The notes beneath the pieces are model-generated. The model had not been told where the DNA came from. It searched no databases and saw only the letters and a program-made list of their open reading frames with translations. DNA of 64,000 bases from Balneolaceae bacterium (lineage in GTDB: Bacteria; Bacteroidota; Rhodothermia; Balneolales; Balneolaceae), in assembly GCA_050117475.1 (NCBI GenBank), contig JASFMR010000004.1, forward strand, positions 274-64,273, read 5' to 3'. Positions 3,504 through 57,597 of the stretch are shown here, piece after piece. The translations under genes were made by a program, and so were the position numbers. Numbering within the stretch: the first letter of the stretch is position 1; the number at the start of each line of letters is the position of its first letter.

Positions 3504-3517
3504 TAAAGACTTCCCTA
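3504..3517. promoter_or_regulatory. Candidate NarL/LuxR-family response-regulator box TAAAGACTTCCCTA
   Basis: Right half is a perfect CCCTA; lies in the divergent intergenic region between the ABC operon and archease-rtcB. Confidence 0.5.
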
Positions 3518-3653
3518 AATGCTTTACCTGATAATAATTATAGTCATGTAGGTAAATTACTTACAGGCATCTTTATTAAGAAAGCTCTCTTTCATTTCAA
3601 AAAATTCATCCAGTAAGCCCCATTCAATAACCATGAAAATACTACAGGGGCAT

Positions 3654-3667
3654 CAGGAACTTACCTG
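3654..3667. promoter_or_regulatory. Candidate response-regulator box CAGGAACTTACCTG
   Basis: CAGG-N6-CCTG palindrome, same 14-bp geometry as the other boxes, same divergent intergenic region. Confidence 0.45.
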
Positions 3668-3872
3668 CTAAAGATCAATATTTTGTGAACTATTTTTGTA
3701 AAACAGTTTTTAGAGCACAGTTCAATATTGTACTAAGGTGCAAAAGTGAATAAACCAGGAAAAATAGCCGCTGGTTTCTTTTTGATCTTCCCTTGACGGG
3801 AACATCACAAGTGTGCTCCGGTCTATTTTAACGTTTTCATTCAACCTAAGATGAATAAATTGTGGGTCAGCT

Positions 3873-4292
3873 TTGACTAATTCTAGCGAACTTCTTACCC
3901 ATACCGCCGATGTCAGACTCCGGGTCAGTTCTGATTCCTTGCCCGGATTGTTTGAATTAAGTCTTAAAGGCTTAAATCAACTTCTGGTTAGAAATTTTAA
4001 CCAATCAACAGCTAAAGAACGTATCAGTGAATCAATTTCTATCGTTTCTCCTGATACTACCTCCCTCCTTATCGATTTTCTCTCCGAGGTGTTAACACTG
4101 TGCCACCTTCGCAAATCCATTTTCTATGAATTTTCAATTGGGAACATGTCGGACTGTACACTTTCAGCAGTCCTTCACGGGGCAAAGGTGGATGCATTTG
4201 ATAAAGACGTTAAAGCCGTGACTTACCATGAGGCTAATGTCCATATAAATAGTCACGGAGACTGGGAAACGATCATCATTTTTGATATTTAA
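3873..4292 (+). CDS. Archease (RtcB activator)
   Basis: Motifs HTADVRL and DVKAVTYH...IIFDI at the C-terminus; immediately upstream of rtcB; TTG start. Confidence 0.9.
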   Translation: MTNSSELLTHTADVRLRVSSDSLPGLFELSLKGLNQLLVRNFNQSTAKERISESISIVSPDTTSLLIDFLSEVLTLCHLRKSIFYEFSIGNMSDCTLSAVLHGAKVDAFDKDVKAVTYHEANVHINSHGDWETIIIFDI

Positions 4293-4303
4293 TCGTTTAG
4301 GCT

Positions 4304-5749
4304 ATGATTGAACAGGCTGAACTTATAAGGATTGACGAATGCCGTTGGGAAATTCCCAAAACTGTACGCAACGATATGCGGGTTCCGGCTTCTATCTTTG
4401 CTATAGAGCAACTCATCGAAGATATCCTTCAGGACCGAACCCTTGATCAACTTATGAATGTGGCTACTCTCCCGGGCATCCAAAAGACGGCCATTGTGAT
4501 GCCCGACGGCCATGAAGGATACGGCTTCCCCATTGGTGGAGTAGCTGCAATGGATATGAAAAAGGGTGTTATTTCGCCGGGCGGAATTGGTTATGACATA
4601 AATTGTGGAGTACGACTTCTTAAATCGGATGTCTCCTACAATGATATAAAACTTTCCATTGGAGAACTGGCCCACGAGATGTCGCGTATGATTCCTAAAG
4701 GGGTTGGCCGTGGCGGACGCCTGAACCTAACGACTGAAGAAATAGACCAGGTATTACACAATGGCGCTGAATGGGCTATAAAGAATGGTTACGGTATTGC
4801 AGAAGATCTGGAGCATATCGAGTCCAAAGGCCGGCTTGCAAACGCTGATCCTGCTGTTGTTTCCGAAAAAGCCAAACAACGGGGACATGACCAGCTTGGT
4901 ACTATCGGAGCAGGAAACCATTTTGTCGAAATCGACCGAGTAGAATCTATTTACGATTCTAATATTGCAGAAATATTTGGCCTGTTTCCAGAGCAGGTTG
5001 TTGTATTGATACATACCGGATCGCGTGGCTTGGGACATCAAATAGCAACGGATTATCTTCGCCGCTTTTTGAATGCAATGTCCTCATACGGCCTCGAGTT
5101 ACCTGACCGTGAATTAGCATGTGCCCCATTTAATTCGACCGATGGCCAAGAATATTTCAAGGCTATGTCAGCGGCAGCAAATTTCGCCTGGTGCAACCGT
5201 GAGGTCATCACCTGGGAAGTGCGGAAATCCTGGGAATATATCATTAAGCAGCCCGGAAAGAATTTAGAACTCCTTTATGATGTAGCCCATAATATCGCAA
5301 AACAGGAAACCCATCGTCTAGGTGATGATCAGAAGGAATTGATTGTTCACCGCAAGGGAGCCACACGTGCATTCGGCCCCGGCCATCCGGAGATTCCCGA
5401 AGATTATAAAAATGCAGGGCAACCGGTTCTCATTCCGGGAAGCATGGGAACATATTCCTATGTGCTGGCGGGAACAAATGAAAATATGGAGCTTTCGTTC
5501 GGATCCACCTGCCATGGAGCCGGGCGACGAATGTCTCGTACTGCCGCCAAGAAGGCCGTAGATGCTCCTACCCTAAAGAAAGAACTCTTGGCTAAGAACA
5601 TCGCAGTTGAGGCGGGATCATACGCCGGGCTTGCCGAAGAAGCTCCTATTGCATACAAAGACATTGATCTAGTAGTTGAAACCGTCCACCGGGCTAAACT
5701 AGCGACAAAAGTTGCTAGATTAAGGCCTGTCGGGGTTATAAAAGGATAA
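4304..5749 (+). CDS. rtcB: RNA ligase RtcB (archaeal/eukaryote-like, archease-associated)
   Basis: MPDGHEGYGFPIGG, DINCGVR, GNHFVE, HTGSRG, VHRKGA, PGSMG, HGAGR and EEAPIAYK all present. Confidence 0.97.
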   Translation: MIEQAELIRIDECRWEIPKTVRNDMRVPASIFAIEQLIEDILQDRTLDQLMNVATLPGIQKTAIVMPDGHEGYGFPIGGVAAMDMKKGVISPGGIGYDINCGVRLLKSDVSYNDIKLSIGELAHEMSRMIPKGVGRGGRLNLTTEEIDQVLHNGAEWAIKNGYGIAEDLEHIESKGRLANADPAVVSEKAKQRGHDQLGTIGAGNHFVEIDRVESIYDSNIAEIFGLFPEQVVVLIHTGSRGLGHQIATDYLRRFLNAMSSYGLELPDRELACAPFNSTDGQEYFKAMSAAANFAWCNREVITWEVRKSWEYIIKQPGKNLELLYDVAHNIAKQETHRLGDDQKELIVHRKGATRAFGPGHPEIPEDYKNAGQPVLIPGSMGTYSYVLAGTNENMELSFGSTCHGAGRRMSRTAAKKAVDAPTLKKELLAKNIAVEAGSYAGLAEEAPIAYKDIDLVVETVHRAKLATKVARLRPVGVIKG

Positions 5750-5752
5750 CCC

Positions 5753-6859: not shown

Positions 6860-6878
6860 AAGATCAGCTTCTTCAATC

Positions 6879-8525: not shown

Positions 8526-8562
8526 AAGAATCCTCGCATCATCATTAGCTGAATCAGTAAAC

Positions 8563-9726: not shown

Positions 9727-9784
9727 TGAACACGTTAAATAATAACTTTAAAGAATACTAAAGCTTATTCTTATTGAATAGTAA

Positions 9785-9820
9785 TAGGTTATCACCAACC
9801 GCATTGTAGGATTTTCCCTA
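9785..9820. promoter_or_regulatory. Tandem response-regulator boxes TAGGTTATCACCAA (9785-9798) and TAGGATTTTCCCTA (9807-9820)
   Basis: Two 14-bp TAGG-N6-CC(T/A)A sites 22 bp apart (about two helical turns), in the divergent promoter of the cytochrome operon. Confidence 0.6.
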
Positions 9821-9860
9821 ATCCTACCCATTACTGCCGACTTAAATCGGCCATCAGAAA

Positions 9861-9883
9861 CATGCCTTTGCAAAAAAGGCATG
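9861..9883. repeat. Inverted repeat CATGCCTTT-GCAAA-AAAGGCATG
   Basis: Perfect 9-bp arms in the same divergent intergenic region; function unknown. Confidence 0.5.
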
Positions 9884-9941
9884 GAATAAATAATGTATCT
9901 GTTTGTCATTTTTCACTCATATCCATTTAAAATTAGCATAA

Positions 9942-10355
9942 ATGAAGATAGACACCAGGTTATTGATGATATCCAGCGCTATCTTAATGGGCATGGCCGG
10001 ATTTGCATTCACTTTTTTCCCGGGGGAGATACTAACCTATTTAGGATTTCCGGCCTTCGAAATGGGAAGAATGTTTTTACAGATCACCGGTGCTTTGTAT
10101 TGGGGATTCTCCATTTTGAATTGGACAGCCCGAGCTATAATAATCGGAGGGATTTACAGCCGCCCCGTAGCCTTGGGAAATTTTCTTCACTTTACGGTAG
10201 TAACAATCATGTTACTAAAAATGATAGCCGGGGATCATACTTCGCCCATTATACTAATCGGCGGATTATTTTATGGTCTGTTTGCCATCTCTTTCGGGCT
10301 CGTGCTTTTTAGACACCCGGAACAAGCTGATTCATTCTCTGCAGACCGTAACTGA
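9942..10355 (+). CDS. Hypothetical inner-membrane protein (about 4 TM helices)
   Basis: 137 aa with four hydrophobic stretches; preferred over the overlapping frame 9893-10312. Confidence 0.7.
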   Translation: MKIDTRLLMISSAILMGMAGFAFTFFPGEILTYLGFPAFEMGRMFLQITGALYWGFSILNWTARAIIIGGIYSRPVALGNFLHFTVVTIMLLKMIAGDHTSPIILIGGLFYGLFAISFGLVLFRHPEQADSFSADRN

Positions 10356-10526
10356 AGATAGCGCTGTATATTAATGGCGTTACGTCACTCTTCCGTTGTA
10401 TCTCCTGCCACCCAGTGCCGCTATTTTTGTAAGTCTACCCATTACATCAATCTCAGTACAACGCCTATTGTACCAGGAATCACAAAATCATAATTAGACT
10501 AAAAGCATTAATCTTATGGTCTTATT

Positions 10527-10931: not shown

Positions 10932-10933
10932 CC

Positions 10934-11167
10934 ATGAAGAATCACCCATATGAACAGGATCCCGACCCGGTATTTCATGAACGTATTCATGTTCTGTCGG
11001 AACGAGGTTATCGCGGCTTTAAAATCACCAACAAACAACAGCATTGGGATGGCCTTAAAGTGACCGCATCGAACAATGCCGGTAAAATAGTAACCTCTGC
11101 AGGGAATACGGAACAGGAGGCCCTGAAGAAGCTGATCGACCAGATTGATTTGATTTTGGATCGGTGA
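10934..11167 (+). CDS. Small hypothetical protein (77 aa)
   Basis: Packed between dksA (2-bp gap) and the PRT gene (15-bp gap); C-terminus has a GNTEQEAL motif. Confidence 0.65.
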   Translation: MKNHPYEQDPDPVFHERIHVLSERGYRGFKITNKQQHWDGLKVTASNNAGKIVTSAGNTEQEALKKLIDQIDLILDR

Positions 11168-11182
11168 AAGTGAAATTGGAGA

Positions 11183-11845
11183 GTGATTATGTTTATCAAT
11201 AGAGAAGACGCAGGCAAAAAACTTGGTAAAGCACTTGATAAATATAAGTCAATGAATCCGATAATCCTGGCTATTCCGAGGGGGGGCATTGAAGTTGGTT
11301 TTTATGCCGCCAAACGGCTGGATTGTGATTTTGAACCAATCGTTATCCGCAAACTAGGATATCCCCAGCAACCTGAAGCAGCATTTGGAGCCGTAGCTGA
11401 GGATGGGAGCCTATACCTTGATCCCTGGTCAAATCAGTATTTGAGCAAGGAAATAATTGAGCGAGTAATTGGTGAAGAAAAGGAAGAAATACAAAGGCGA
11501 ATCAAAGCGTACAGACAAGGGCGCCGCCTACCCGACCTAAAAGACCGAGTAGTCATCTTAGTCGACGACGGTATTGCTTCTGGCGCTACAATATTTGCAG
11601 CATTGACGATGTGTCGCAAACATGAGCCTGAAAAACTTATTATTGCGGCCCCTGTATCCGGAAAAACGCGGCTCACCAAACTCAGCGCGAAAGCGGATGA
11701 ACTGGTCATACTCGAAAAAAGAGAACATTTTTTTGCCGTCTCCGAAGGTTACCGTGAATTCACCAATCTTTCGGATAGCCAAGTCCTTGAATTACTGAAA
11801 CAGTGGCAACAATATTCAAAAAAAGGCGTCCCCCCTGAACAGTAA
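11183..11845 (+). CDS. Phosphoribosyltransferase family protein (Rv0571c/Rv2030c N-domain-like)
   Basis: FINREDAG, LAIPRGG, IRKLGYPQQPEAAFGAV and PRPP loop VILVDDGIASGAT. Confidence 0.9.
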   Translation: MIMFINREDAGKKLGKALDKYKSMNPIILAIPRGGIEVGFYAAKRLDCDFEPIVIRKLGYPQQPEAAFGAVAEDGSLYLDPWSNQYLSKEIIERVIGEEKEEIQRRIKAYRQGRRLPDLKDRVVILVDDGIASGATIFAALTMCRKHEPEKLIIAAPVSGKTRLTKLSAKADELVILEKREHFFAVSEGYREFTNLSDSQVLELLKQWQQYSKKGVPPEQ

Positions 11846-11966
11846 GCATTTACCCCACACCCTTCTTATACCGGTACTTACAGGTAATAACAAAATTTAG
11901 CTCTCACCTATATTTTCAAAATCAGGCTACCCTGCATTATCCTTTAATAAAATGAGGAAAAGTATC

Positions 11967-13604
11967 ATGGCTCATAAAAAATTACTTTTTCAAACCGCCG
12001 CACGTGAAAAAATCCTAAGGGGGGCGACAGTCCTTTTTGACGCCATACGATTTACCCTGGGACCCAAGTCAAAATCCGTTTTGATCGAAAAAAAATGGGC
12101 CAAACCACTGGTTTGCAATGACGGGGTAACTATAGCAAAAGAAATAACCTTAAGAGATCCCGAGGAAAATCTTGGTGCACAGGTACTTAAAGAAGCTGCA
12201 GAACGGACCGGCGACTTAGTGGGTGATGGCACATCTACGTCAACCGTTTTGGCATATACCATCTTTTCTGAAGGTTTAAAAAACGTTGCTGCACGTGCCA
12301 GTTCAATAGAACTCAAACGGGGACTGGATCGGGGCCTGAAAGTAGCTGTGGAAGCGCTCAAAGAAATTTCACGCCCGGTAAAATCCCATAAAGAAAAAGT
12401 GCAGGTCGCCACCATCTCAGCTCATAATGACGCGACGATTGGGGAACTGGTTGCAGAAGCCATTGATAAGGTAGGCTCAGAGGGGGTTATAACGGTTGAG
12501 GAGGCCAAAGGAACTGAAACAATAGTTGAGATCGTCGAAGGAATGCAATTTGACCGGGGATATCTCTCCCCTTATTTCGTTACTGACAGTCAGAAAATGC
12601 AGGTGGAAATCGAAAACCCCTCCATCCTTCTTTACGATAAAAAAATAAGCTCACTAAACGACTTACTTCCTCTGCTGGAACAAGCAGCCAAACAACAGGT
12701 AAGTCTTGTTGTAATAGCAGAAGACGTTGATGGTGAAGCCCTTGCCAGCCTGGTAGTTAATAAACTTAGGGGCGTTTTATCGTGCGTCGCTGTCAAAGCA
12801 CCCGGTTTTGGAGACCGTAGAACCGCCATACTGGAGGATATTGCCCTTTTAACAGGTGGTCAATTGGTCTCAGAAGAAATGGGAATGAAACTGGAAAACG
12901 TAACCATCGAATCACTGGGTAAGGCTCAGCGCCTTATTGTGGATAAGGATACAACCACTATCATTGGTGGAGCAGGTGACAAAGAGGTCATTGATGGCCG
13001 TTGCAATGAGATTCGCATTCAAATGGAAAGGTCAACCTCCGACTATGATAAAGAGAAGCTTCAGGAAAGACTGGCCAAGTTGTCAGGAGGCGTCGGGGTC
13101 ATCCACGTTGGAGCCCCTTCAGAAACTGAACTTAAAAGCCGTAAAGAGGCTTTTGAAGATGCCATCAGCGCCACCAAAGCTGCTATAGAAGAAGGGATCG
13201 TCCCGGGTGCCGGCCTGGCCCTGCTGAGAACCATATCTGCTGTCACAGAAGAGGCTGTTCGTGCCGAAGGGGATGAAAAAACAGGTATTATGATCTTGCG
13301 AAGGGCCCTGGAAACCCCTGCCCGTCAAATAGCAGAAAATTCAGGCGCGGATGACGGCGTGGTCGTAGATAGAATGCTTGCCGGAGATGGTAACATCGGT
13401 TTTGACGCCTCGGTCAATCAATTCGTCGACCTTTTAAAAGCGGGAATCATTGACCCCACCAAAGTCGTGCGCATTGCCTTGGAAAATGCCGTTTCGGTGG
13501 CCGGTATATTACTTCTGACTGAAGCAACCATGACAGAAGTAGAAGAAAAGAAAATCCCGGTTCGGGAAAACGGTGCCCTTGAAGAGGAAGCCATGGAGTA
13601 TTGA
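11967..13604 (+). CDS. groEL: Chaperonin GroEL paralog (no adjacent groES, no GGM tail)
   Basis: [64 protein letters not shown]. Start set at MAHKK after a GAGG RBS. Confidence 0.93.
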
Positions 13605-13643
13605 TTGCTAAAAAGTATTTGCCGTAAACTTTTAAGAGGATAG

Positions 13644-16536: not shown

Positions 16537-16753
16537 ACCTGCTTTACAAATAATACATGCTTTATCACTTAAAACAGGTATGATCAGTTCTTGGATTTAT
16601 GTAGTACAGCTTATGATTTTCCTGTAGTATGTGCCCTTATCTTTATCAATAACAATTATTTAATTTTTTTTTGAAGTTTTATAGCGATTTTCCTTAAAAT
16701 TGATATATCAACCTATCACAACTACAAGAGAGTGCAGGTTAGGAGGAGCAAAT

Positions 16754-23748: not shown

Positions 23749-23825
23749 CAAAACTGTACGTTCATCTATTCTATCTATGTAAGAGTTACTACTACATATT
23801 TACAATTAGAACACACTTATAGGAA

Positions 23826-32888: not shown

Positions 32889-32959
32889 ATTACGCCCTCT
32901 GCGATTTTAAAGGTAGATTTTACAATCCAATATTTGAAAAAACTGCTCATGTTTACCTA

Positions 32960-32973
32960 CGGGAGATATCCCA
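32960..32973. promoter_or_regulatory. Candidate response-regulator box CGGGAGATATCCCA
   Basis: Core GGGAGATATCCC is nearly identical to GGGAGATGTCCC upstream of hsp20; about 75 bp upstream of the DUF5335 gene. Confidence 0.55.
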
Positions 32974-33099
32974 CTCTGATGACGGGTAATACACTACAAA
33001 TCTGTAGATGAGTCACCCATTAGAATTTTTCTGTCCAACTATCGGATCATTTGATTCCTTATTATAACAGTTAGCCTCTGAATCATACTCCTATTATCA

Positions 33100-47492: not shown

Positions 47493-47504
47493 CTATTGCT
47501 GGAA

Positions 47505-49916: not shown

Positions 49917-49935
49917 CGTCGCTCACCTTCTAAGA

Positions 49936-50685
49936 TTATTTAATCACATATCCGCCGTCAACAAGTAAAGAATGTCCCGTAATGAATGATGCTTCATCAG
50001 AAGCAAGCCAAACTACGGCATTTGCTATCTCTTCAGCTTTGCCCAATCTACCTATGGGATGAAGGGCTATTATAGATTTTTTCGTATCTGGATCAGTGGT
50101 TATACCGGCGCGGTCCAGCATTGGCGTATCGATGAACCCGGGACAGACGGCGTTTATTCGGATGTTTTGTTTAGCATAATCCAAGGCGGCAGCTTTCGTC
50201 AAGCCAATAAGGCCGTGCTTTGCGGCTACATAACCCGGGGCTTGCTCAAAAGCCACTTGACCCAATATGGAAGACATGTTAATTATTGAACCGCCATGTT
50301 CTATCATTTGGGGTATTTCATATTTCATACACAGCCATTGGCCTCTCAGATTTACATTCATAACCCGATCCCACTCATCAATGGTATAATCAGCCGTTAG
50401 CGCTGTTGTTCCTTCAATGCCCGCGTTGTTGCAGGCCACATCCAATCTGCCGAATTCTTGAATTATTTTGTTAATCATTCCTTTGACCTCATCTGCATGA
50501 GCGATATCGCAGGTTAAAGCCAGTGCCTCTCCCCCCTCGTTGGTAATTTCATCTTCAACTTCATACAGATCATCGTCATTAAGATCACAGATAACTGTCC
50601 TATATCCTTTTTGCGCAAATTTTAGAGCCGTTTGTTTTCCAATTCCAGATGATGCTCCTGTAACCAAAGCCACTCTCTTTTCCAT
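49936..50685 (-). CDS. Short-chain dehydrogenase/reductase (glucose-1-DH-like)
   Basis: TGASSGIG, NNAG, YVAAKHG, AVCPG, VDGG. Confidence 0.92.
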   Translation of the reverse strand: MEKRVALVTGASSGIGKQTALKFAQKGYRTVICDLNDDDLYEVEDEITNEGGEALALTCDIAHADEVKGMINKIIQEFGRLDVACNNAGIEGTTALTADYTIDEWDRVMNVNLRGQWLCMKYEIPQMIEHGGSIINMSSILGQVAFEQAPGYVAAKHGLIGLTKAAALDYAKQNIRINAVCPGFIDTPMLDRAGITTDPDTKKSIIALHPIGRLGKAEEIANAVVWLASDEASFITGHSLLVDGGYVIK

Positions 50686-50711
50686 TTCAGACCTCTTCGT
50701 GTCAAATAGTT

Positions 50712-50740
50712 AAAGGAACCGCATCAGATGCGGTTCCTTT
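50712..50740. terminator. Probable intrinsic terminator downstream of hsp20
   Basis: Perfect inverted repeat AAAGGAACCGCATC-A-GATGCGGTTCCTTT with A/T-rich ends. Confidence 0.75.
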
Positions 50741-50767
50741 TCATCGTAAAGATGAACTCTAACTCAA

Positions 50768-51220
50768 TTAGTCAATAGCTACTGTTTTACGCTTGCTCTT
50801 CTCGGCTTTAGGAATATTTACCTTGAGCACACCATCTTTAAATGTTGCTTTGATTTTTTCATCGGTAATAGCTGCGGGCAACATGAAGGAGCGCTTGAAG
50901 GAGCCGAAATAACGTTCGCTGCGTAAATAACCTTCACGTTCTTCTTTTTTTTCTTCTTTTCTTTCTCCTTCAATAGTCAAAACATTATCATGATAGTTGA
51001 TCTGGATATCTTTCTTTGTCAACCCCGGAAGATCTACGTCAACAATATATTCATTGTCTGTTTCGACCATATCAGCTTTTGGAGACCAGAATCCTATTTC
51101 GGTTTCTGGTTCTTCAAATCTCCAGGAAAACGGAATGAGATCATTAAAAATCCGATCCATTTCTCTCCTTAGATTGGTTACTGCAGTTGTACTGCTGGGG
51201 TATTTTACTAACGACTTCAT
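50768..51220 (-). CDS. Hsp20/alpha-crystallin small heat-shock protein
   Basis: DMVET, DLPGL.K.DI, LTIEGER, ERYFGSFKRSF.LP, A.FKDGVL. Confidence 0.95.
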   Translation of the reverse strand: MKSLVKYPSSTTAVTNLRREMDRIFNDLIPFSWRFEEPETEIGFWSPKADMVETDNEYIVDVDLPGLTKKDIQINYHDNVLTIEGERKEEKKEEREGYLRSERYFGSFKRSFMLPAAITDEKIKATFKDGVLKVNIPKAEKSKRKTVAID

Positions 51221-51258
51221 GATACTACATCCTCTTTTTTCTTAAGTTTCTATGAATA

Positions 51259-51272
51259 AGGGAGATGTCCCT
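51259..51272. promoter_or_regulatory. Candidate response-regulator box AGGGAGATGTCCCT
   Basis: Part of the 16-bp near-palindrome AAGGG-AGATGT-CCCTT, about 40 bp upstream of hsp20. Confidence 0.55.
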
Positions 51273-51356
51273 TTTGTTCAAAACTTAATCCAGCCAAGCC
51301 TTTAGCTATGCAGTATGTTCCTTTTGAAGCCTGTAATCAAAAATGGGTATTCCAAT

Positions 51357-51371
51357 TAGGAAATATCCCTA
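51357..51371. promoter_or_regulatory. Candidate box TAGGAAATATCCCTA(CA)
   Basis: Both half-sites present but the spacer is one base longer (15 bp); upstream of hsp20. Confidence 0.45.
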
Positions 51372-51385
51372 CATCCTAAACCACA

Positions 51386-52057
51386 TCAAAAAGTGCCAGA
51401 ATGCTCATTTTCGACCCATTTTACAGCATGCACCATCAACTCCGTAGCATTCTCAAGATTCAGTTTGGTTTTTATACGCGCCCGATACGACTCAACTGTT
51501 TTAACAGAGAGATGAAGCTTTTCGGCAATTTCTCTTGTGCTGTTACCCTTGCCGGTTAATTCAAAAACTTCGAGTTCACGGTCACTCAACAACTCAATGG
51601 GAGATTCCATAACATCTTTCTGTCCCCTGGCCATACCCATCAGCAGGCGTTCACTAACCTCTTCGCTAACATAAATTCCGCCATGCAATACCTTTTTGGC
51701 GGCCTTGAGAAGTACTTCGCCGGCTTCCAGTTTCATCACATACCCTTTAGCCCCAGCCCTGATGACACGTTCGGCATAAAGTGATTCGTCATGACGTGAG
51801 ACAACCAGGATTTTAATATCTTCTTTCTGAGCAACTAGGTGTTTAACCAACTCTAGTCCACTCATGCCGGGAAGGGATACATCAACCAATATCAAATCAG
51901 GTTTATATTCGTCAAGTTTTTGTATAAGCTCCTCAGCACGATCGAGCTGAGCTATCACATCAAATCCCGGTTCGGAATCCAACGTCATGGCCAATCCCTT
52001 TCTCATGATGGGATGATCATCCACAATTACTATTCTCTTTTTAAAATTATCTGCCAT
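51386..52057 (-). CDS. NarL/FixJ-family response regulator (REC + LuxR HTH)
   Basis: VIVDDHPIMR, LVDVSLP (phospho-Asp), GYVMK; LSDRELEV...SVKTVESYR. Confidence 0.95.
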   Translation of the reverse strand: MADNFKKRIVIVDDHPIMRKGLAMTLDSEPGFDVIAQLDRAEELIQKLDEYKPDLILVDVSLPGMSGLELVKHLVAQKEDIKILVVSRHDESLYAERVIRAGAKGYVMKLEAGEVLLKAAKKVLHGGIYVSEEVSERLLMGMARGQKDVMESPIELLSDRELEVFELTGKGNSTREIAEKLHLSVKTVESYRARIKTKLNLENATELMVHAVKWVENEHSGTF

Positions 52058-52068
52058 TGTAATGTCCT

Positions 52069-53463
52069 TTAAATGTTATCTGATGGTATCTCGCATATTA
52101 CATGTGTCTGGTTATCAATTTCCTCAATGGAAAATTGTCCAGACATCATATTTGAACGGTATCCCATGATACGGACTCCCATTCCTTTAGCCTGTTCATT
52201 ATCTTTTGAATTGGAAAATCCAATTCCGTCGTCGATGATTTCGAGTTTAATGATATCCTTAGCTGAACTAAGTATAATTTTAATGTTTTCAGCCTTTCCA
52301 TGTTTGACAGCATTACTTACAGCCTCTTGAGCTATTCGGTATAAGTTCAATACTGTCATAGAGTTATATATTTTAATATCCGAATTATTAGTAAAATTAC
52401 AATTTACTCTAAAAAACTTTCGGGCCTGTGCACTGAGACTTTTTAAAGCTACATTAAGCCCTTCCTCGACATCCACATGTATCAACCCATGGGCAAGGGC
52501 TTTGGCATATTCATCCGCTTCCTTAATCAGATCCGAGACTTCTTGCACCTCATCTGCTCCAGGGATCCCGTTGGATTTTAGTTTTCGAGCTAAATTCTGG
52601 CTTATAAGCCCGATGCCAGTGAGCATTTGTCCCAGTCCGTCGTGCAGATCCTGCCCTATACTTCTTCGCTCTTCTTCAGACACACGAAGTATTTCCTGCT
52701 CCAATCTTCGCCGGTCTGTGATATCATTGATAACACCTGTAAATATCCTGCTCGTATTCCATTTGACCTCGCTAACCGAGAGTTCCAATGGAAAAATAGT
52801 CCCATCTTTTCTAATGCCTGTCATTTCTCTCCGGAGGCCGATAATATGATTTTCCCCAGTCTCGATATATCGCCGAACATAATCATCATGATTCGACCGG
52901 TGCGGCTCCGGCATCAAGATATGCACACTTTTGCCGATGACCTCTTCTTCATCATATCCAAATATTTTTGAAGCGGCCTGGTTAAAACTTAGAATTTGCC
53001 CATTCTCATCAGCAGTTACTATACCGTCAACTGTTGTTTCTAATATTGCCTGTGCCCGAGCTTTATTTTCTTCCAGCTCCGATTCAATCTCCTTTAAATG
53101 TTGAATATCATAGGAAGAAGCAATGATCGCCATAATATCTCCATCAGCATTTTTAAGTGGCTTTGTATGAAGATCAATCCAGACTATGGATCCATCTTTG
53201 GTAATACTCTTCCATTGTGCATCGATATTTTTACCATTTTTTAACCGCTCAAGATCAAATTCCAATTTATCTTTTGCAAAAGAAGGATAAATCTTTGAAA
53301 TAGGTTGATTAATCATTTCTTCTTTTGAATATCCGAATACCTTTTTACTGGCATTATTCCAATAGATGACGGTTCCATCAGGATCAACAACGATCACACT
53401 CTGAGAAATTTTCTCAAGAATTTCATGCTCGTCTAAAACGTCTTTGCTTATCATATTTTTCAT
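52069..53463 (-). CDS. Cytoplasmic PAS-PAS histidine kinase with FixL-like heme-PAS and HisKA_3 domain
   Basis: Second PAS ILMPEPHRSNHDDY...HIIGLRREMTGIRKDG aligns with the FixL heme PAS (proximal His and distal Arg kept); QDLHDGLGQ; QEAVSNAVKH, DDGIGF; no TM helix. Confidence 0.88.
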   Translation of the reverse strand: MKNMISKDVLDEHEILEKISQSVIVVDPDGTVIYWNNASKKVFGYSKEEMINQPISKIYPSFAKDKLEFDLERLKNGKNIDAQWKSITKDGSIVWIDLHTKPLKNADGDIMAIIASSYDIQHLKEIESELEENKARAQAILETTVDGIVTADENGQILSFNQAASKIFGYDEEEVIGKSVHILMPEPHRSNHDDYVRRYIETGENHIIGLRREMTGIRKDGTIFPLELSVSEVKWNTSRIFTGVINDITDRRRLEQEILRVSEEERRSIGQDLHDGLGQMLTGIGLISQNLARKLKSNGIPGADEVQEVSDLIKEADEYAKALAHGLIHVDVEEGLNVALKSLSAQARKFFRVNCNFTNNSDIKIYNSMTVLNLYRIAQEAVSNAVKHGKAENIKIILSSAKDIIKLEIIDDGIGFSNSKDNEQAKGMGVRIMGYRSNMMSGQFSIEEIDNQTHVICEIPSDNI

Positions 53464-53580
53464 TCCATCCCATTAAAAGATAGTACACTGAAACAGCTAA
53501 AAAGTCACCTTCTCCTGTCTCTTTCAATAATACTGAAAACATCTAATGTAACTTCTTAAGAAAGACCCTTACATTGCTGT

Positions 53581-53594
53581 AGTGGAATCCCCTA
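53581..53594. promoter_or_regulatory. Candidate box AGTGGAATCCCCTA upstream of the kinase
   Basis: Reverse complement TAGGGGATTCCACT has a perfect TAGGG half; possible autoregulation. Confidence 0.45.
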
Positions 53595-53616
53595 TATGGG
53601 TTATTTTACAGTGCCA

Positions 53617-53655
53617 GATAGAAAAAGATTGGGGATGAGCTGCCCACTCATCCCC
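53617..53655 (-). terminator. Probable intrinsic terminator (minus strand)
   Basis: GGGGATGAG-CTGCCCA-CTCATCCCC 9-bp stem followed on the minus strand by AATCTTTTTCT. Confidence 0.7.
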
Positions 53656-53892
53656 TGGCGCATTACTTCAAAGCATCTCCCCTTAAAATAACTCTGAAGT
53701 AACTCATTAAGCCTAACTTCTCTCTCTTAAGTCAAAAACCAATTCATACTAAGTTAATTTATTTATTATCCTCTTTGGTTATAAAACATGTTTAAATAAA
53801 ATGAATGATATCAAAATTTTTCACCCACCTAATTTGTGGTAATTTAGACTTAATCAATGTGGGGAAATCTATTATATACTCCAATTTGAACA

Positions 53893-53914
53893 GGGATGAG
53901 TTTTCACCCATCCC
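53893..53914. repeat. Second hairpin related to the 53631 stem
   Basis: GGGATGAGT-TTTC-ACCCATCCC; shares GGGATGAG...CATCCCC with the hairpin about 260 bp away. Confidence 0.5.
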
Positions 53915-53998
53915 CGTATTCACTCCAAAGTGTCTCCCCTAACCAACTTTGAAGCAAATATTTTGTTACTCTTTTCATGTAATCTCGCCAATCGGCTT

Positions 53999-54874
53999 TC
54001 AATTCAAGCGAAGTTGCCATCCAATGCCAAACACAAAATCTGCCGAAGACTCAGAGAGTCCAAACGAAGCATTTCCTGAAATTGAATTGCTTGCATTAAT
54101 AGCATAATTAACACCGCCCCCCACATTAAGGGGAGGATCGGTATCCGTGATAATCCTTGTCATACCATTAAGTGAACCCAGTAACATCCATTTACCGGAG
54201 CTGAAAGATTTACCGATGCCCGCTCCATAACTTAATGCATCACTCAGAGCTAGGTCCGGCATATCTCCAAACCACCAATACATGAGATTTAGCATGAGAA
54301 ACCAGCTTTTCAGACGCTGGGTGAATGCTGTTCCCAGCCCTCCATCCCAGGCGCCGGTGCCGTATCCGCGATCAGGATCGGCAAGTGGAATCTTGATATT
54401 ACCCATAAGGCGGAGATTGGTAGCACTGTTTATTTTCGTCCTGTTAATTATTGAAATTCCGGCCGAAACCGTTGGATCACTAAAGCTGGAACGGCTGAAG
54501 GAAGCCGTATCAGGAATATCAATCTGGCGACGCCCTCTTCTTCCGCTACCCATCCCCGTAGTAGCCCCTTGTTTTCCAACGGACCCATGCTGAGGCCCGC
54601 CGGTTGGCAGATAACCTGATTGTGAATAAGATATCCATGGGCTATTTTGAATGACAAATGGCACTGTTATTCCCAAGCTGTATTGCTTGTTCTGCAAAGT
54701 TATTCCATTTATAAGATAAAAGCTGTATGTGGGCTCTGTGAAGTAATAAGAACCACCCGCATATTGCATATTTCCGGAATAAGTAAGCTCCTGTGCATAT
54801 AGCGGATACATGTACAAACTCCCAGTTACGAAAGACAGTAAAAGTGATCGGATATAAAAACCGGGGTGCGACAT
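53999..54874 (-). CDS. Putative outer-membrane beta-barrel (MetA-pathway/COG4313-like 'transporter')
   Basis: Signal peptide (…MYPLYA/QE), amphipathic strands, GNIKIPLAD...GYGTGAWDGG, C-terminal FVFGIGWQLRLN. Confidence 0.65.
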   Translation of the reverse strand: MSHPGFYIRSLLLSFVTGSLYMYPLYAQELTYSGNMQYAGGSYYFTEPTYSFYLINGITLQNKQYSLGITVPFVIQNSPWISYSQSGYLPTGGPQHGSVGKQGATTGMGSGRRGRRQIDIPDTASFSRSSFSDPTVSAGISIINRTKINSATNLRLMGNIKIPLADPDRGYGTGAWDGGLGTAFTQRLKSWFLMLNLMYWWFGDMPDLALSDALSYGAGIGKSFSSGKWMLLGSLNGMTRIITDTDPPLNVGGGVNYAINASNSISGNASFGLSESSADFVFGIGWQLRLN

Positions 54875-54895
54875 TTTATTATTTGATGCTAAATT

Positions 54896-55369
54896 TTACT
54901 GTTCTGACTGAGCCGGCTGATGTTCGCGAAGTCGTTTATTGATTCGTTCCATCGCTTGTACAGCCTCGTCCATCTGGTTGGTCATAGCGCTCAGATGTTC
55001 ACGTAATCGGTCCATATCTCTTTTCATATCCCGGTCTTGCATCATCTGTTGATCCTGTAGCATCTGGTTACAACGTTCTGCAGAGTTTTTCATATTCTGA
55101 AGCATTAAACCCATATTCTCGCCCATCTGATGCATTTGCTGGTATTGATTTCGCATCTGCTCATCCTGAGTTCGTTGCATCATCTGGTTCATTTCCTGGT
55201 TCATTGCCTGTGTACGCTGCATCAAGTTGGTCATATGTTGCATCATATCCTGCATTTGCTTCATCTGTTGCTGCATTTGCTGTTGCTGCTGCCCTTGTTG
55301 GGAAAAAGCCGTTCCGGCAGCTACAAAGAATGCGACAAATAAGGTCACAAGTGTTTTTATTTTCTTCAT
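54896..55369 (-). CDS. Secreted Met/Gln-rich helical protein
   Basis: Signal MKKIKTLVTLFVAFFVAAGTAFS from ATG 55369; by hand count the 134-aa mature chain has 25 Met and 35 Gln. Confidence 0.8.
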   Translation of the reverse strand: MKKIKTLVTLFVAFFVAAGTAFSQQGQQQQQMQQQMKQMQDMMQHMTNLMQRTQAMNQEMNQMMQRTQDEQMRNQYQQMHQMGENMGLMLQNMKNSAERCNQMLQDQQMMQDRDMKRDMDRLREHLSAMTNQMDEAVQAMERINKRLREHQPAQSEQ

Positions 55370-55481
55370 GTTATTCTCCAATATTTTTCCATTGACAGCT
55401 AAACGAATGTTACATAATGCATACAACGTAATTGAAGCTATTTTTACTACGGTTTTTGTAATTCATTGGGAAATAAGGATG

Positions 55482-55525
55482 TAGGGATATACATGACATA
55501 TCTAACAATGGCATAGATTTCCTTA
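55482..55525. promoter_or_regulatory. Pair of oppositely oriented candidate boxes TAGGGATATACATG (55482-55495) and CATAGATTTCCTTA (55512-55525)
   Basis: Each has one good half-site; they resemble each other as inverted copies (TARGGAWATMYATG); divergent promoter. Confidence 0.4.
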
Positions 55526-55601
55526 CGCGAAATAGTTGATAACGCTTACATCATTATTTCGGCGGATTAATGAGTTTAAAAAGTAAATCAATTGTTTTGC
55601 T

Positions 55602-56258
55602 ATGTATGAGATCATTCACCAACTACCATTCAACGGCTTTCAGGTAAGATCAATATTATCGCTTCCTACCGATGCAAAGAGTTTGATTATTTTCTCGCAT
55701 ACGGGGAGCGGGGGAGAAGTAACTCCTCTCGAAAAAGAGATGGCCAAACATCTTCAGAAAGAAGGGTTTGCTACATTGATGTATGATTTTCTGCATCAGT
55801 ATGAGAAAGGATACAAAATTGATATTGATGTCCTGAGTCGTGGATTAGTGACTTCTACACTTTGGTTGCATGATCATTCCGAATATAACCTGTTCAAAAT
55901 AGGGTATTTCGGGGTGGGAACGGGGGCTGCTTCTGCTCTAAAGACCGCTGCACAACTGGAATCTATCATCAGCGGAGTGGTTTCACTCAGTGGAAGAACT
56001 GACCTCGTACATCATGAACTATCGCTGGTAAAATGTCCAGTGTTGCTAATAGCTGGTGAACTTGACTTTCAAGGAGTCAAAATGAACCAAAAAGCTTTGA
56101 AAAAATTGGGAGGGCCAAAGCAATTAGCTGTTATTTCAGGGGCCTCTCACTTATTCGAGGAAAGCAAAAAGCTAGAGGAAGCAAAACATATTACAGGTAG
56201 TTGGTTTCATAAATTTCTTCCTACAACACCCAAAGGTAAATGGTTACAGCATAAATGA
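55602..56258 (+). CDS. Dienelactone-hydrolase-like alpha/beta hydrolase with degenerate nucleophile elbow
   Basis: GYFGVGTGAASAL (family usually GYFGASTGAAAAL), VSLSGRTDL, LLIAGELD, GASHLFEE. Confidence 0.8.
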   Translation: MYEIIHQLPFNGFQVRSILSLPTDAKSLIIFSHTGSGGEVTPLEKEMAKHLQKEGFATLMYDFLHQYEKGYKIDIDVLSRGLVTSTLWLHDHSEYNLFKIGYFGVGTGAASALKTAAQLESIISGVVSLSGRTDLVHHELSLVKCPVLLIAGELDFQGVKMNQKALKKLGGPKQLAVISGASHLFEESKKLEEAKHITGSWFHKFLPTTPKGKWLQHK

Positions 56259-56261
56259 GGA

Positions 56262-56762
56262 TTGAGAATGACTAAAAAGAAGAAAGGACATACTTTTAAA
56301 CAGGAACGGCTACGTATATTTAAAGAGAAGCGCATCGATACCTATTTGGAGCGGCAAAAGTATCCCGATCCTACCATTTGTATCAAATGCGGCGCTCTTT
56401 ATAAAGAAGGCCGATGGACTTGGGATGATTTGCCGGAAATAGCCCATGAAGCTGTTTGCCCGGCTTGTCAACGCATAGCAGACGATTATCCCGGTGGTAT
56501 CATAGAATTAAAAGGTGAATTTCTGGATGAACATAAAGATGAGATTCTAAATCTCGTCCGAAATATTAGCAGCCTTGAACAGTCTCGACATCCCTTGGAA
56601 AGGCTTATGGAAATTACCGACACATCCGAATCCATCATCATAAAAACAACGGGTATGCATGCAGCGCGGCGCATAGGGGGAGCCATCCACGATGCCTACC
56701 AGGGCGACATTGATTATAATTATGATGCTGAGAATTATGTTCGTATTACTTGGCACCGATAA
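56262..56762 (+). CDS. BCAM0308-like protein (CxxC...CxxC)
   Basis: PTICIKCGA...GRWTW...CPACQRI.D.YPGG..EL.G.FL..H..EI...HPLER.M...ARRIG.AI..AY.G; pattern recalled for the lxa-locus BCAM0308 family. Confidence 0.75.
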   Translation: MRMTKKKKGHTFKQERLRIFKEKRIDTYLERQKYPDPTICIKCGALYKEGRWTWDDLPEIAHEAVCPACQRIADDYPGGIIELKGEFLDEHKDEILNLVRNISSLEQSRHPLERLMEITDTSESIIIKTTGMHAARRIGGAIHDAYQGDIDYNYDAENYVRITWHR

Positions 56763-56765
56763 TGT

Positions 56766-57521
56766 TTAAGCTGTGAGCTTATCAAGCATATTGTCAACCC
56801 AGATGGGATCTACCTTTCTAAGGCGTTGCTTTTTGAGATTCTCCCTCATGATGCGATTTACGACAGGATGTTTTTCTTTTATCCACCGCTCGATTTTGCC
56901 CTTCCCTTTTTCAGGCATTTCAGCCGCTGCAACACTCCAGCAATAGCTTAATCCCTTGCGGAGCACTTCGTAAGCATCGTCCTTTTTATCATCAAAAGCA
57001 ATCATTGAAGCAGTCGCCCAGTCAAGGAATTCAAAGACATGGTCTTTAACCTCAACATCCCGAAGAATATCCGGCTCGCAAAATCCGGCTATGACCGCAC
57101 GCTGCTCCAGTAACGATCCCTCAATCCATGACCGTGCATACTTAAGCAGTCGCTTGCTATTTTTTCGGCCAATCGTTTGCAAAGCCATCGCCACGGCCTC
57201 TCGTACCCGCCATCTGGGGTCATTAGCTCGCTTTCTAAGTTGTCTTAAAAGCCCGCCATCGTGATAATGAGCAAGATATTCCCCAAATCCCAATACGCCA
57301 CAAAAAACCAAGAACACCTCGGGAGTATTTTCAGGGGCTTCTTCGGGATCCAACCGAACATATTTTTTGAAATCCATTAATGTAGCCGTTTCAGCAAAAG
57401 CACGAGCCAATTCTAAATTCCCGCGCTGGCCCGGCAGTCCGGAATACTTCATTAGAAACTCTTCCCAGTTTTTGGGTGATAAATGAAGCAGCTCTTTTTT
57501 ATAACTCCCTATTTTATTCAA
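56766..57521 (-). CDS. HEAT-repeat protein
   Basis: SGLPGQRGNLELA, ANDPRWRVREAVAMALQ; helical repeat character. Confidence 0.65.
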   Translation of the reverse strand: MNKIGSYKKELLHLSPKNWEEFLMKYSGLPGQRGNLELARAFAETATLMDFKKYVRLDPEEAPENTPEVFLVFCGVLGFGEYLAHYHDGGLLRQLRKRANDPRWRVREAVAMALQTIGRKNSKRLLKYARSWIEGSLLEQRAVIAGFCEPDILRDVEVKDHVFEFLDWATASMIAFDDKKDDAYEVLRKGLSYCWSVAAAEMPEKGKGKIERWIKEKHPVVNRIMRENLKKQRLRKVDPIWVDNMLDKLTA

Positions 57522-57583
57522 AATACTCCCCCATCTTTATGATTATTACCAACAGGATAGTATTTATTCTGCTAAAATATTAT

Positions 57584-57597
57584 CAGGGAAAACCCTA
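57584..57597. promoter_or_regulatory. Response-regulator box CAGGGAAAACCCTA(CA)
   Basis: One mismatch from TAGGG-N4-CCCTA; about 65 bp upstream of the HEAT gene; rightmost box found. Confidence 0.6.

What the first reader, a model, noticed from the sequence alone, without database searches (positions are those of the whole stretch)
3504..57597. Recurrent TAGGG-N4-CCCTA-like palindrome marking island promoters (predicted regulon box)
Seen, all intergenic: 3504 TAAAGACTTCCCTA, 3654 CAGGAACTTACCTG, 9785 TAGGTTATCACCAA, 9807 TAGGATTTTCCCTA, 23735 (half), 32960 CGGGAGATATCCCA, 51259 AGGGAGATGTCCCT, 51357 TAGGAAATATCCCTA (15 bp), 53581 AGTGGAATCCCCTA, 55482/55512 pair, 57584 CAGGGAAAACCCTA. Several half-sites extend to TGTAGG/CCTACA. 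I saw none in the spacers of the core genes right of 57.7 kb, though those spacers are short. Established (from memory, verify): NarL-family regulators bind 14-bp palindromes of this geometry, e.g. the staphylococcal O2-responsive NreC box TAGGG-N4-CCCTA and the RcsB box. Inference: binding site of the regulator at 51386-52057. Sites were picked by eye, so selection bias is possible.
Basis: partly seen in the sequence, partly recalled or inferred. Interest (0 to 1): 0.75.

Follow-up and report, generated by a model that had tools for sequence, protein, structure and literature searches.

The report
Operator box of an oxygen-sensor regulon

Summary
A regulon box exists, but not with the geometry in the title. 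Alignment of orthologous promoters gives a 19-bp palindrome, TGTARGG-N5-CCYTACA (core TAGGG-N5-CCCTA, 15 bp). It is not TAGGG-N4-CCCTA.

- **Spacing:** in 80 loci holding orthologues of the regulator (Balneolales and Rhodothermales), N5 gives 61 hits. N4 gives 8 and every other spacing gives 5 or fewer.
- **Window:** all 9 N5 hits are intergenic.
- **Density:** box density in window spacers is 20-40 times that of spacers in the rest of the genome.
eight of twelve lie on elements conserved in orthologous promoters (3504, 9785, 9807, 32960, 51357, 53581, 55482, 57584). Position 51259 is instead the tip of a 5'-UTR RNA stem-loop of the HSP20 mRNA. Position 3654 is unsupported, and 23735 and 55512 are doubtful. 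The strongest sites at 3547 and 23778 were missed.
- **Architecture:** a full site lies 4 bp upstream of a second, weaker site. The outer half of that second site (CTTACA/CGTACA) occupies the -35 position.
- **Link to the regulator:** the box precedes the kinase-regulator operon in nearly all relatives. It is absent from a relative that kept the kinase and neighbouring genes but lost the regulator.

The kinase carries a FixL-type heme-PAS domain. I file this as a new member of a known kind. No binding or expression data exist.

The parts
51386..52057 (-). NarL/FixJ-type response regulator (receiver + GerE HTH), the proposed box-binding protein
   Evidence: Pfam Response_reg 3.8e-27 and GerE 4e-17. 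Best solved relative is DevR/DosR 3c3w, E 6e-28. Recognition helix is SVKTVESYRARIK, nearly invariant in 77 of 80 orthologous loci.
52069..53463 (-). Soluble PAS-PAS-HisKA_3-HATPase kinase. Its second PAS is of FixL heme type.
   Evidence: Pfam. FixL heme-PAS structures match at E 1e-33 to 1e-34, with the ILMPEP..R..HD.Y and IIG..R motifs aligned.
51355..51373 (-).
   Evidence: Gap-free conservation in 20 relatives. Top genome hit of a matrix that excluded the own genome's site (24.9 bits).
51332..51350 (-). HSP20 promoter, site 2. Only its outer half ATTACA (51332-51337) is conserved. It sits in the -35 position, 16 nt before TACTGC.
   Evidence: CTTACA/CCTACA/ATTACA at fixed offset 37-42 in 20 relatives. 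TACA ends at offset 42 in 15 of 62 strong sites of distant loci, against 3 or fewer at any other offset.
53578..53596 (-). Implies autoregulation.
   Evidence: Score 22.1, the best in the genome. A full 19-bp palindrome lies at the same place in six relatives. 20 of 62 strong sites in distant loci lie just upstream of the kinase gene.
53555..53573 (-). Kinase-regulator promoter, site 2: TGTAAGGGTCTTTCTTAAG, 4 nt after site 1
   Evidence: A TGTARGG half-site follows site 1 after 3-4 nt in all seven genomes compared.
57581..57599 (-).
   Evidence: Conserved as TGTAGGATTTTCCCTTATA or TGTAAGGGAATCCCTTATA in six relatives. Absent upstream of the DeoC-family gene in three genomes that lack the regulator.
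23755..23796 (-). CheB-like/P-type ATPase operon promoter. Site 1 is TGTAGTAGTAACTCTTACA (23778-23796). Site 2 ends in CGTACA (23755-23760), 17 nt before TATATA.
Evidence: Conserved in six relatives with CGTACA and a TATATA-like -10 at fixed spacing. Score 17.0.
3501..3565 (-). ABC-transporter (2730-3467) promoter: three phased 19-mers at 3547-3565, 3524-3542 and 3501-3519.
   Evidence: Site 1 scores 20.7. Sites 1 and 3 (GGGAnGTnnnTACA) are conserved in six orthologous promoters.
9782..9823 (-).
   Evidence: GATAGGGAAAACCCCTACA (22.7) and related boxes lie at the same place in orthologous promoters of seven other genomes. Site 2 (GGT..ACCCATTAC) is shared with two of them. The window's own left half is slipped by 1 bp (score 10.8).
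32957..32998 (-).
   Evidence: The same two blocks at the same spacing in five or six relatives. Matrix scores are low (8.5 and -3.8), so this rests on conservation only.
55457..55498 (.). Divergent promoter region of the 176-aa gene (minus strand) and the DLH-family gene (plus strand). Toward the minus-strand gene, ATTACA lies in the -35 position.
   Evidence: Score 14.6. A box about 105-120 nt upstream of DLH orthologues in three other genomes, each followed by CTTACA/CGTACA at offset 37-42.
53835..53876 (-). Box TGTGGGGAAATCTATTATA plus ACCACA in the -35 position, upstream of a conserved small-RNA-like element
   Evidence: Score 16.9, intergenic. Not tested by orthology.
10428..10446 (+). 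Candidate box upstream of the DksA/TraR-like gene
   Evidence: Half-site sum 13.5, intergenic. Full matrix score only 9.5. Unverified.
11841..11882 (+). Candidate tandem upstream of the second GroEL paralogue: AGTAAGCATTTACCCCACA, 4 nt, then a site ending in CTTACA
   Evidence: Canonical architecture. Score 11.0. One orthologue carries a weak hit (13.2). Unverified.
16600..16641 (-). Candidate tandem upstream of the M50-CBS peptidase gene
   Evidence: Architecture ends in ACTACA. Conserved only in the very close relative G019. In other relatives the gene has no promoter of its own.
51242..51288 (-). NOT a box: nested stem-loop in the HSP20 5' UTR.
   Evidence: Separate folds of 17 orthologous UTRs each place a hairpin here. 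Loop length runs from 2 to 9 nt and the outer-stem sequences differ between clades. The window's own z-score is only -1.66. RNAalifold on a MAFFT alignment found nothing.

Best explanation
The motif is the operator of the two-component system encoded at 51386-53463.

Proposed mechanism:
1. The soluble kinase senses oxygen through a FixL-type heme-PAS domain and phosphorylates the NarL-type regulator.
2. Regulator dimers bind a 19-bp palindrome, TGTARGG-N5-CCYTACA.
3. In most target promoters a strong upstream site is followed after 4 bp by a weaker site. If the hexamer at offsets 37-42 is the -35 element, the upstream site is centred near -62.
4. The promoter-proximal half of the weaker site (CTTACA/CGTACA/ATTACA) takes the place of the -35 hexamer. 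Two dimers on the same face of the helix could then recruit RNA polymerase (class I plus class II activation).

Targets in the window:
- the system's own operon
- the HSP20 gene
- the CheB-like/P-type ATPase operon
- the DUF5335/giant-protein operon
- an ABC transporter
- a cytochrome operon
- the HEAT-like gene
- the DLH / Met-Gln-rich protein pair

Further targets lie on other contigs, including a second HSP20 and a second PAS-HisKA_3 kinase.

Shown here: the motif, its spacing, its conservation, its promoter position, and its co-occurrence with the regulator.
Inferred, not shown: that the regulator binds it, that it activates rather than represses, and that low oxygen is the signal.
For: Motif and spacing:
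- Gap-free conservation of the box in 20 orthologous HSP20 promoters.
- Conservation in the kinase, HEAT-like, CheB-like and DUF5335 promoters of six relatives.
- Conservation in ABC and DLH promoters and in cytochrome promoters.
- The spacing test gives N5 = 61 against N4 = 8 in 80 independent loci.

Not chance:
- 21 genome hits against about 4 in the null.
- The seven best genome hits are all intergenic.
- Window spacers are enriched 20-40 fold over other spacers.
- TGTAG/CTACA is the top 5-mer in an unbiased comparison of window spacers with other spacers: 16 against 5.35, uncorrected P 1.5e-4.

Link to the regulator:
- 77 hits at score >=13 in 478 kb around regulator orthologues, against 4 after shuffling.
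- The hits concentrate just upstream of the kinase gene and just downstream of the regulator gene, and avoid the coding parts.
- The recognition helix is nearly invariant.
- In G021 no regulator orthologue was found at E <=1e-40. Its HEAT-like, kinase and giant genes are kept, and there is no box in 11 kb.
- Genus members without the regulator lack the island's HSP20 orthologue and have no box near their HSP20 paralogues.

Architecture:
- TACA ends at offset 42 in 15 of 62 distant sites, against 3 or fewer elsewhere.
- A -10-like hexamer lies 16-18 nt after that hexamer.

Sensor:
- FixL heme-PAS match at E 1e-33.
Against: - There are no binding, expression or transcription-start data.
- The genome has six other GerE-type proteins, and one of them could share the box.
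- The matrix was trained on orthologues of four window promoters, so four window hits are not independent.
- Within the window alone, word enrichment is only marginal after multiple-test correction.
- Some conserved elements are in an N4 register (ABC site 3, and the window's own copy of the cytochrome site). Binding geometry may therefore be more flexible than one consensus suggests.
- The -35/-10 assignments assume sigma-70-like promoters in a lineage related to Bacteroidota, where promoter rules differ.
- Many island genes have no box of their own (N-ATPase, PEP synthase, archease-RtcB, two P-type ATPases).
Confidence: 0.78

Rival explanations
1. The box is real, but another transcription factor binds it: one of the six other GerE/LuxR-type proteins of the genome, or an unrelated protein. 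The neighbouring regulator has a different site.
For: Seven GerE-domain proteins in the genome. Weaker box-like palindromes lie near two of them (C25:26603 and C43:20762). Nobody has shown binding.
Against: The box tracks this regulator's orthologues across two orders, at the kinase promoter and just downstream of the regulator gene. No box was found in the 11-kb retained region of the one genome that lost only the regulator and its nearest genes. No close paralogue of the regulator exists in this genome at E <=1e-40.
Confidence: 0.1
2. The regulator binds the box but acts mainly as a repressor, or responds to a signal other than oxygen (redox state, NO or CO).
For: The direction of regulation and the signal are inferred only. 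Heme-PAS sensors also respond to NO and CO. The box in the HEAT-like promoter lacks the second site in the -35 position.
Against: The full site lies about 40 bp upstream of a -35-position half-site in at least six promoters, which is the usual layout of activators. The gene content (HSP20, P-type ATPases, M50-CBS, PRTase, DLH, archease-RtcB) parallels genes induced by DosR in mycobacteria. That parallel is drawn from my memory of the DosR regulon.
Confidence: 0.1
3. The listed palindromes are chance matches picked by eye in AT-rich spacers.
For: 3654, 23735 and 55512 look like chance.
Against: Positional conservation in orthologous promoters of up to 20 genomes, the sharp spacing optimum, and the genome-wide excess over null models.
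Confidence: 0.01

Closest known systems
DosR/DevR with DosS/DosT and the dormancy regulon of Mycobacterium tuberculosis
   Same: - NarL-type regulator; DevR is the best solved relative (3c3w, E 6e-28).
- HisKA_3 kinase with a heme sensor domain.
- Autoregulated operon next to an HSP20 gene.
- A second sensor kinase elsewhere in the genome.
- G-rich palindromic box.
- Overlapping gene content: HSP20, P-type ATPase, M50-CBS, PRTase, DLH, archease/RtcB (DosR regulon membership recalled from memory).
- Tandem strong-plus-weak sites with the proximal one over -35 (DevR promoter layout recalled from memory).
   Different: - The sensor is a FixL-type heme-PAS, not heme-GAF.
- The box is 19 bp with GGG-N5-CCC. 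The DosR box is 20 bp with GGG-N8-CCC (TTSGGGACTWWAGTCCCSAA, from memory).
- Of the DNA-contacting residues K179, K182 and N183 (from memory), only the first is kept here; the others are E and S.
- Different phylum.
NreBC of staphylococci (NreC box TAGGG-N4-CCCTA, consensus from memory; 'GC rich palindromic region' in PMC8139620)
   Same: Oxygen-responsive PAS/HisKA_3 kinase with a NarL-type regulator. The TAGGG/CCCTA half-sites are identical.
   Different: The spacing is N5, not N4 (61 against 8 hits). NreB senses oxygen through an Fe-S cluster, not heme. The target genes differ: nitrate respiration there, stress and ion-pump genes here.
GacA/UvrY box TGTAAG-N6-CTTACA (PMC8523701)
   Same: The outer half-site TGTAAG/CTTACA is the same as TGTARG/CYTACA here. 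The recognition helix resembles GacA's KTVxSYR (GacA helix from memory).
   Different: This box is 1 bp longer (19 against 18 bp) and needs the extra G/C. GacA drives Csr/Rsm small RNAs and pairs with a hybrid membrane kinase.
lxa low-oxygen-activated locus of Burkholderia cenocepacia (PMC3721108)
   Same: A large clustered low-oxygen locus with HSP20, a cation ATPase and two-component systems, marked by a recurring promoter motif at 17 intergenic points.
   Different: The lxa motif is Anr/FNR-like, TGA-N6-TCA. It is bound by a CRP-family protein, not by a NarL-type regulator.
FixL/FixJ of rhizobia
   Same: The heme-PAS oxygen sensor domain is clearly homologous (E 1e-33). The regulator has a GerE-type HTH.
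   Different: The transmitter here is HisKA_3, as in NarX, DesK and DosS. FixJ is a weaker match to the regulator (E 3.5e-15, against 6e-28 for DevR).

Membership tests
NarL/FixJ (GerE-HTH) response regulators with palindromic operators | Receiver domain plus C-terminal GerE helix-turn-helix | tested here: met
   Pfam Response_reg 3.8e-27 and GerE 4e-17.
NarL/FixJ (GerE-HTH) response regulators with palindromic operators | Inverted-repeat operator in target promoters, including the regulator's own operon | tested here: met
   A 19-bp palindrome conserved upstream of the kinase-regulator operon in six relatives and in many of 80 distant loci.
NarL/FixJ (GerE-HTH) response regulators with palindromic operators | Physical binding of the phosphorylated regulator to the box | not testable with these tools
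   Needs EMSA, footprinting or ChIP.
NreC box (TAGGG-N4-CCCTA) | TAGGG / CCCTA half-sites | tested here: met
   Matrix columns 3-7 read T A R G G.
NreC box (TAGGG-N4-CCCTA) | 4-bp spacer (14-bp palindrome) | tested here: not met
N5 gives 61 hits against 8 for N4 in 80 loci, and 9 against 1 in the window.
DosR/DevR box | 20-bp palindrome with GGGAC-N4-GTCCC (consensus from memory) | tested here: not met
   Here the geometry is GGG-N5-CCC with flanking TGTA/TACA.
DosR/DevR box | Recognition-helix residues K179, K182 and N183 (from memory) | tested here: not met
   Alignment to 3c3w shows K kept, K182 replaced by E, and N183 replaced by S.
GacA/UvrY box | TGTAAG-N6-CTTACA, 18 bp (PMC8523701) | tested here: not met
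   The half-site matches, but the frame here is 19 bp. The 18-bp frame corresponds to the N4 class, which is a minority.
lxa / Anr-FNR motif | TGA-N6-TCA (PMC3721108) | tested here: not met
   The consensus TGTARGG-N5-CCYTACA has no TGA-N6-TCA core.
FixL-type heme-PAS oxygen sensors (for the partner kinase) | Heme-PAS with proximal His and distal Arg motifs | tested here: met
   E 3e-33 to FixL 1d06, with ILMPEPhRsnHDdYvrRY and IIGlrR aligned. Heme binding itself was not tested.

The most novel reading that the evidence does not exclude
Balneolota and Rhodothermota (including Salinibacter and Rhodothermus relatives) share an ancient low-oxygen regulon that has not been described. In it a FixL-type heme-PAS domain is wired to a HisKA_3 kinase and a DosR-like regulator. 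The regulator reads an odd-spaced 19-bp operator in a fixed class I plus class II tandem layout. The regulon would be a convergent counterpart of the mycobacterial dormancy regulon. In this Fodinibius it has grown into a >50-kb island and may include a small RNA and an HSP20 5'-UTR RNA switch.
Probability: 0.45. Interest if true: 0.6.

Novelty: new member of a known kind. Interest (0 to 1): 0.48.

Why it matters
This gives a testable regulatory code for an uncharacterised two-component system that is conserved across two orders of halophilic and thermophilic bacteria related to Bacteroidota. Almost no transcription-factor sites are known in these lineages.

With the box, the low-oxygen/stress regulon can be read directly from any of these genomes. 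It separates directly controlled operons from genes that merely sit in the island. It also offers a natural comparison with DosR, NreC and GacA for how a 1-bp change in half-site spacing is accommodated by GerE-type dimers.

Tried and rejected
not enriched.
- **Exact 4-mer and 3-mer palindromic dyads, window spacers against other spacers:** nothing found, because the sites are too degenerate.
- **Simple IUPAC pattern counts:** too few real sites have 1 mismatch or fewer, so I dropped a genome-by-genome pattern census.
- **Sigma-54 reading of the conserved TTGCA block in the HSP20 promoter:** rejected by inspecting the alignment. No GG lies at the required distance.
- **51259 as a box:** rejected. 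Loop length varies from 2 to 9 nt and the element sits inside a larger stem-loop.
- **RNAalifold on a MAFFT alignment of the UTRs:** no structure found. I judge the alignment to be at fault.
- **Rfam on 50600-57800 and 3400-3950:** no significant family.
- **Orthology test of 9807 through the 139-aa gene:** that gene is unique to this genome. The test succeeded through the cytochrome gene instead.
- **M50 and GroEL-paralogue promoters:** no informative orthologous promoters.
- **Literature searches for the box, or for DosR-like systems in these phyla:** nothing found.

Full report
**Context.** The window is contig C4:274-64273 of a 3.37-Mb draft genome with 44% G+C. Relatives with 82-85% identical regulator proteins are named Fodinibius/Aliifodinibius, family Balneolaceae.

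Pfam annotation shows the following genes:
- a soluble PAS-PAS-HisKA_3 kinase (52069-53463) and a NarL-type regulator (51386-52057)
- HSP20
- four P-type ATPases
- an N-ATPase operon
- PEP synthase
- a second GroEL paralogue
- an M50-CBS peptidase
- PRTase
- a DLH-family hydrolase
- archease-RtcB
- cytochromes
- a CheB-like protein
- a 2879-aa protein

From my memory of the DosR regulon, this content resembles it. An earlier first-stage note on this genome said the same.

**The observation.** The consensus in the title fails a simple test. TAGGGN4CCCTA with up to 2 mismatches occurs 13 times in the window against 20.2 expected. By eye the list also mixes registers: GGG-N4-CCC, GGG-N6-CCC, and one 15-mer.

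**What the sequence shows.** I took the spacer between the regulator gene and the HSP20 gene from 20 relatives. All align without gaps. The conserved layout is:
1. TGTAGGGAnATnnCCTA
2. about 20 nt of variable sequence
3. C(T/C)TACA at offset 37-42
4. TAYTGCA

The same box recurs in six relatives at orthologous positions:
- **Kinase gene.** A full palindrome such as TGTAGGGAATATCCCCACA lies upstream, followed after 3-4 nt by another TGTARGG.
- **HEAT-like / DeoC-family spacer.** The box lies between the two genes.
- **CheB-like gene.** Upstream lies TGTAGnn-N5-nCTTACA, then 4 nt, then a block ending in CGTACA exactly 17 nt before a TATATA-like hexamer.
- **DUF5335 gene.** The box is present upstream in degenerate form.

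Further orthologous promoters confirm three more cases:
- the ABC transporter, with three phased 19-mers
- the DLH gene
- the cytochrome operon

The consensus is TGTARGG-N5-CCYTACA.

**Spacing.** I scored the two half-sites separately and combined them at spacers of 0 to 11. The 80 loci fetched by regulator homology from Balneolales and Rhodothermales give 61 hits at N5, 8 at N4 and 5 or fewer elsewhere. The window gives 9 at N5, all intergenic, and 0-1 elsewhere. The core is therefore TAGGG-N5-CCCTA. That is one base longer than the NreC box (from memory) and than the GacA box TGTAAG-N6-CTTACA (PMC8523701).

**Statistics.**
- A symmetric 19-bp matrix built only from relatives gives 21 genome hits at score >=16, against 3-6 in five order-3 Markov genomes. 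At score >=20 it gives 5 against 0.
- The seven best hits are all intergenic.
- Window spacers (4.6 kb) hold 7 hits at score >=14, against 0.19 expected from the density in the other 343 kb of spacers. Four of these seven are orthologous to training sites. The other three (3547, 53858, 55480) are independent, and two of them were then confirmed by their own orthologues.
- An unbiased word count ranks TGTAG/CTACA first among 5-mers (16 against 5.35). That is only marginal after correction. The decisive evidence is conservation, not within-window counting.

**Promoter architecture.** In the window, the HSP20, CheB-like, GroEL-paralogue, M50, 176-aa and 53858 promoters share one layout. It is a 19-mer, 4 nt, then a second 19-mer whose last six bases read ATTACA, CGTACA, CTTACA, ACTACA or ACCACA. 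In the 62 strongest sites of the 80 distant loci, TACA ends at offset 42 in 15 cases and at no other offset more than 3 times. A -10-like hexamer follows 16-18 nt later. If those hexamers are the -35 and -10 elements, the strong site is centred near -62 and the weak site overlaps -35. That is the classic layout of an activator.

**Who binds it.** The regulator has a receiver and a GerE HTH.
- Its best solved relative is DevR/DosR, but two of the three DNA-contacting residues I recall for DosR differ. This fits a different box.
- Its recognition helix, S(V/I)KTVESYRARIK, is nearly invariant in the 80 orthologous loci.
- In those loci the box hits number 77 against 4 after shuffling. They cluster just upstream of the kinase gene (20 of 62) and just downstream of the regulator gene (17 of 62).
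- Genome G021 is 99% complete and has no regulator orthologue at E <=1e-40. It keeps the HEAT-like gene, the kinase gene and the giant gene in the same order. It lacks the regulator, HSP20 and DUF5335, and it has no box at score >=10 in 11 kb.
- The other genus members that lack the regulator have only 34-40% identical HSP20 paralogues, with no box nearby. They also have no box upstream of the DeoC-family gene.

Six other GerE-type proteins exist in the genome, so a different binder is not excluded.

**Signal.** The kinase's second PAS matches FixL heme-PAS structures at E 1e-33, with the proximal-His and distal-Arg motifs aligned. This agrees with an earlier first-stage note. Oxygen sensing is inferred, not shown.

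**Extent of the regulon.** In relatives the island is only about 17 kb. Its order is HEAT-like, kinase, regulator, HSP20, (P-type ATPase), DUF5335, giant protein, CheB-like, P-type ATPase. The N-ATPase, PEP synthase, archease-RtcB and other genes are additions in this genome, and most have no box of their own.

Strong boxes also lie outside the window, upstream of the following genes:
- a second HSP20
- a second PAS-HisKA_3 kinase, a parallel to the DosS/DosT pair
- a PAS-HisKA_2 kinase
- an FGGY kinase
- an SRPBCC protein
- DUF6544
- DUF1761
- Kup
- an AMP-dependent ligase

- **Supported (8):** 3504, 9785, 9807, 32960, 51357, 53581, 55482, 57584.
- **Rejected (1):** 51259. It is the tip of a nested stem-loop in the HSP20 5' UTR. 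Orthologues keep a hairpin there with loops of 2-9 nt and different outer-stem sequences. The single-sequence z-score is modest at -1.66.
- **Unsupported (1):** 3654.
- **Doubtful (2):** 23735 and 55512.

**Comparison with known systems.**
- The Burkholderia lxa motif is Anr-type, TGA-N6-TCA (PMC3721108), and is unrelated.
- The DosR, NreC and GacA boxes share G-rich or TGTAAG half-sites but differ in spacing.
- I found no paper describing this box, or a DosR-like system, in Balneolota or Rhodothermota. That search covers open-access text only.

**Verdict.** This is a real operator of a NarL-family regulator that has not been characterised. I file it as a new member of a known kind.

Noticed in passing
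window 51242-51288 (minus strand): The HSP20 mRNA leader folds into a nested stem-loop. Orthologues in 17 relatives keep a hairpin at the same place, with different stem sequences. In several of them an upstream CCTTC can pair with the GAAGG of the ribosome-binding region. It could be an RNA thermometer or a stabiliser.
   Followed up: partly
window 53622-53702 and 53888-53947 (minus strand): An element of about 80 nt (hairpin CTTCAGAG..CTTTGAAG followed by a GC-rich terminator hairpin and a T-run) is conserved upstream of the kinase promoter in at least five relatives. This genome has two diverged copies there and none elsewhere. There is no Rfam match. The box at 53858 lies upstream of the first copy, so it may be a regulon small RNA.
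   Followed up: partly
window 3711-3830: A 125-nt non-coding block upstream of archease-rtcB is 82% identical in the closest relative, while the flanking spacer is not alignable. It ends in a terminator-like hairpin (AACCAGG..CTGGTT followed by a T-rich stretch) on the plus strand. No significant Rfam match.
   Followed up: partly
L218 (G021:C14:13000-24000): A natural deletion variant. This same-genus genome keeps the HEAT-like gene, the kinase (48% identical) and the giant protein in order. It lacks the regulator, HSP20 and DUF5335, and has no box.
   Followed up: yes
G000 C9:35940-37703 (L045:5940-7703, minus strand): A second soluble PAS-PAS-PAS-HisKA_3 kinase is preceded by a box (AATAATGGAAATCCCTACA, score 16.5). 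No second regulator orthologue was found. This resembles the DosS/DosT pair of mycobacteria.
   Followed up: partly
G000 C16:45023-45478 (L044:12023-12478, minus strand): A second HSP20 gene carries a box that differs from the island HSP20 box at a single base (ATTAGGAAATATTCCTACA).
   Followed up: partly
window 10932-11182 (plus strand): The 251-bp 'spacer' between the DksA/TraR-like gene and the PRTase gene appears to hold an open frame. By eye it starts at ATGAAGAATCACCC and is about 75 codons long. It was below the ORF-list cut-off.
   Followed up: no
window 11952-13604: The island's Cpn60 gene is a second GroEL paralogue, 55% identical to the housekeeping copy on C77. Orthologues occur in only two of 40 relatives.
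   Followed up: partly
G000 C78 (L047): Three boxes (scores 15.1-16.2) lie on one 18-kb contig, together with a DLH paralogue, an AMP-dependent ligase, DUF72 and an HlyD-family gene. This may be a second cluster of the regulon.
   Followed up: partly
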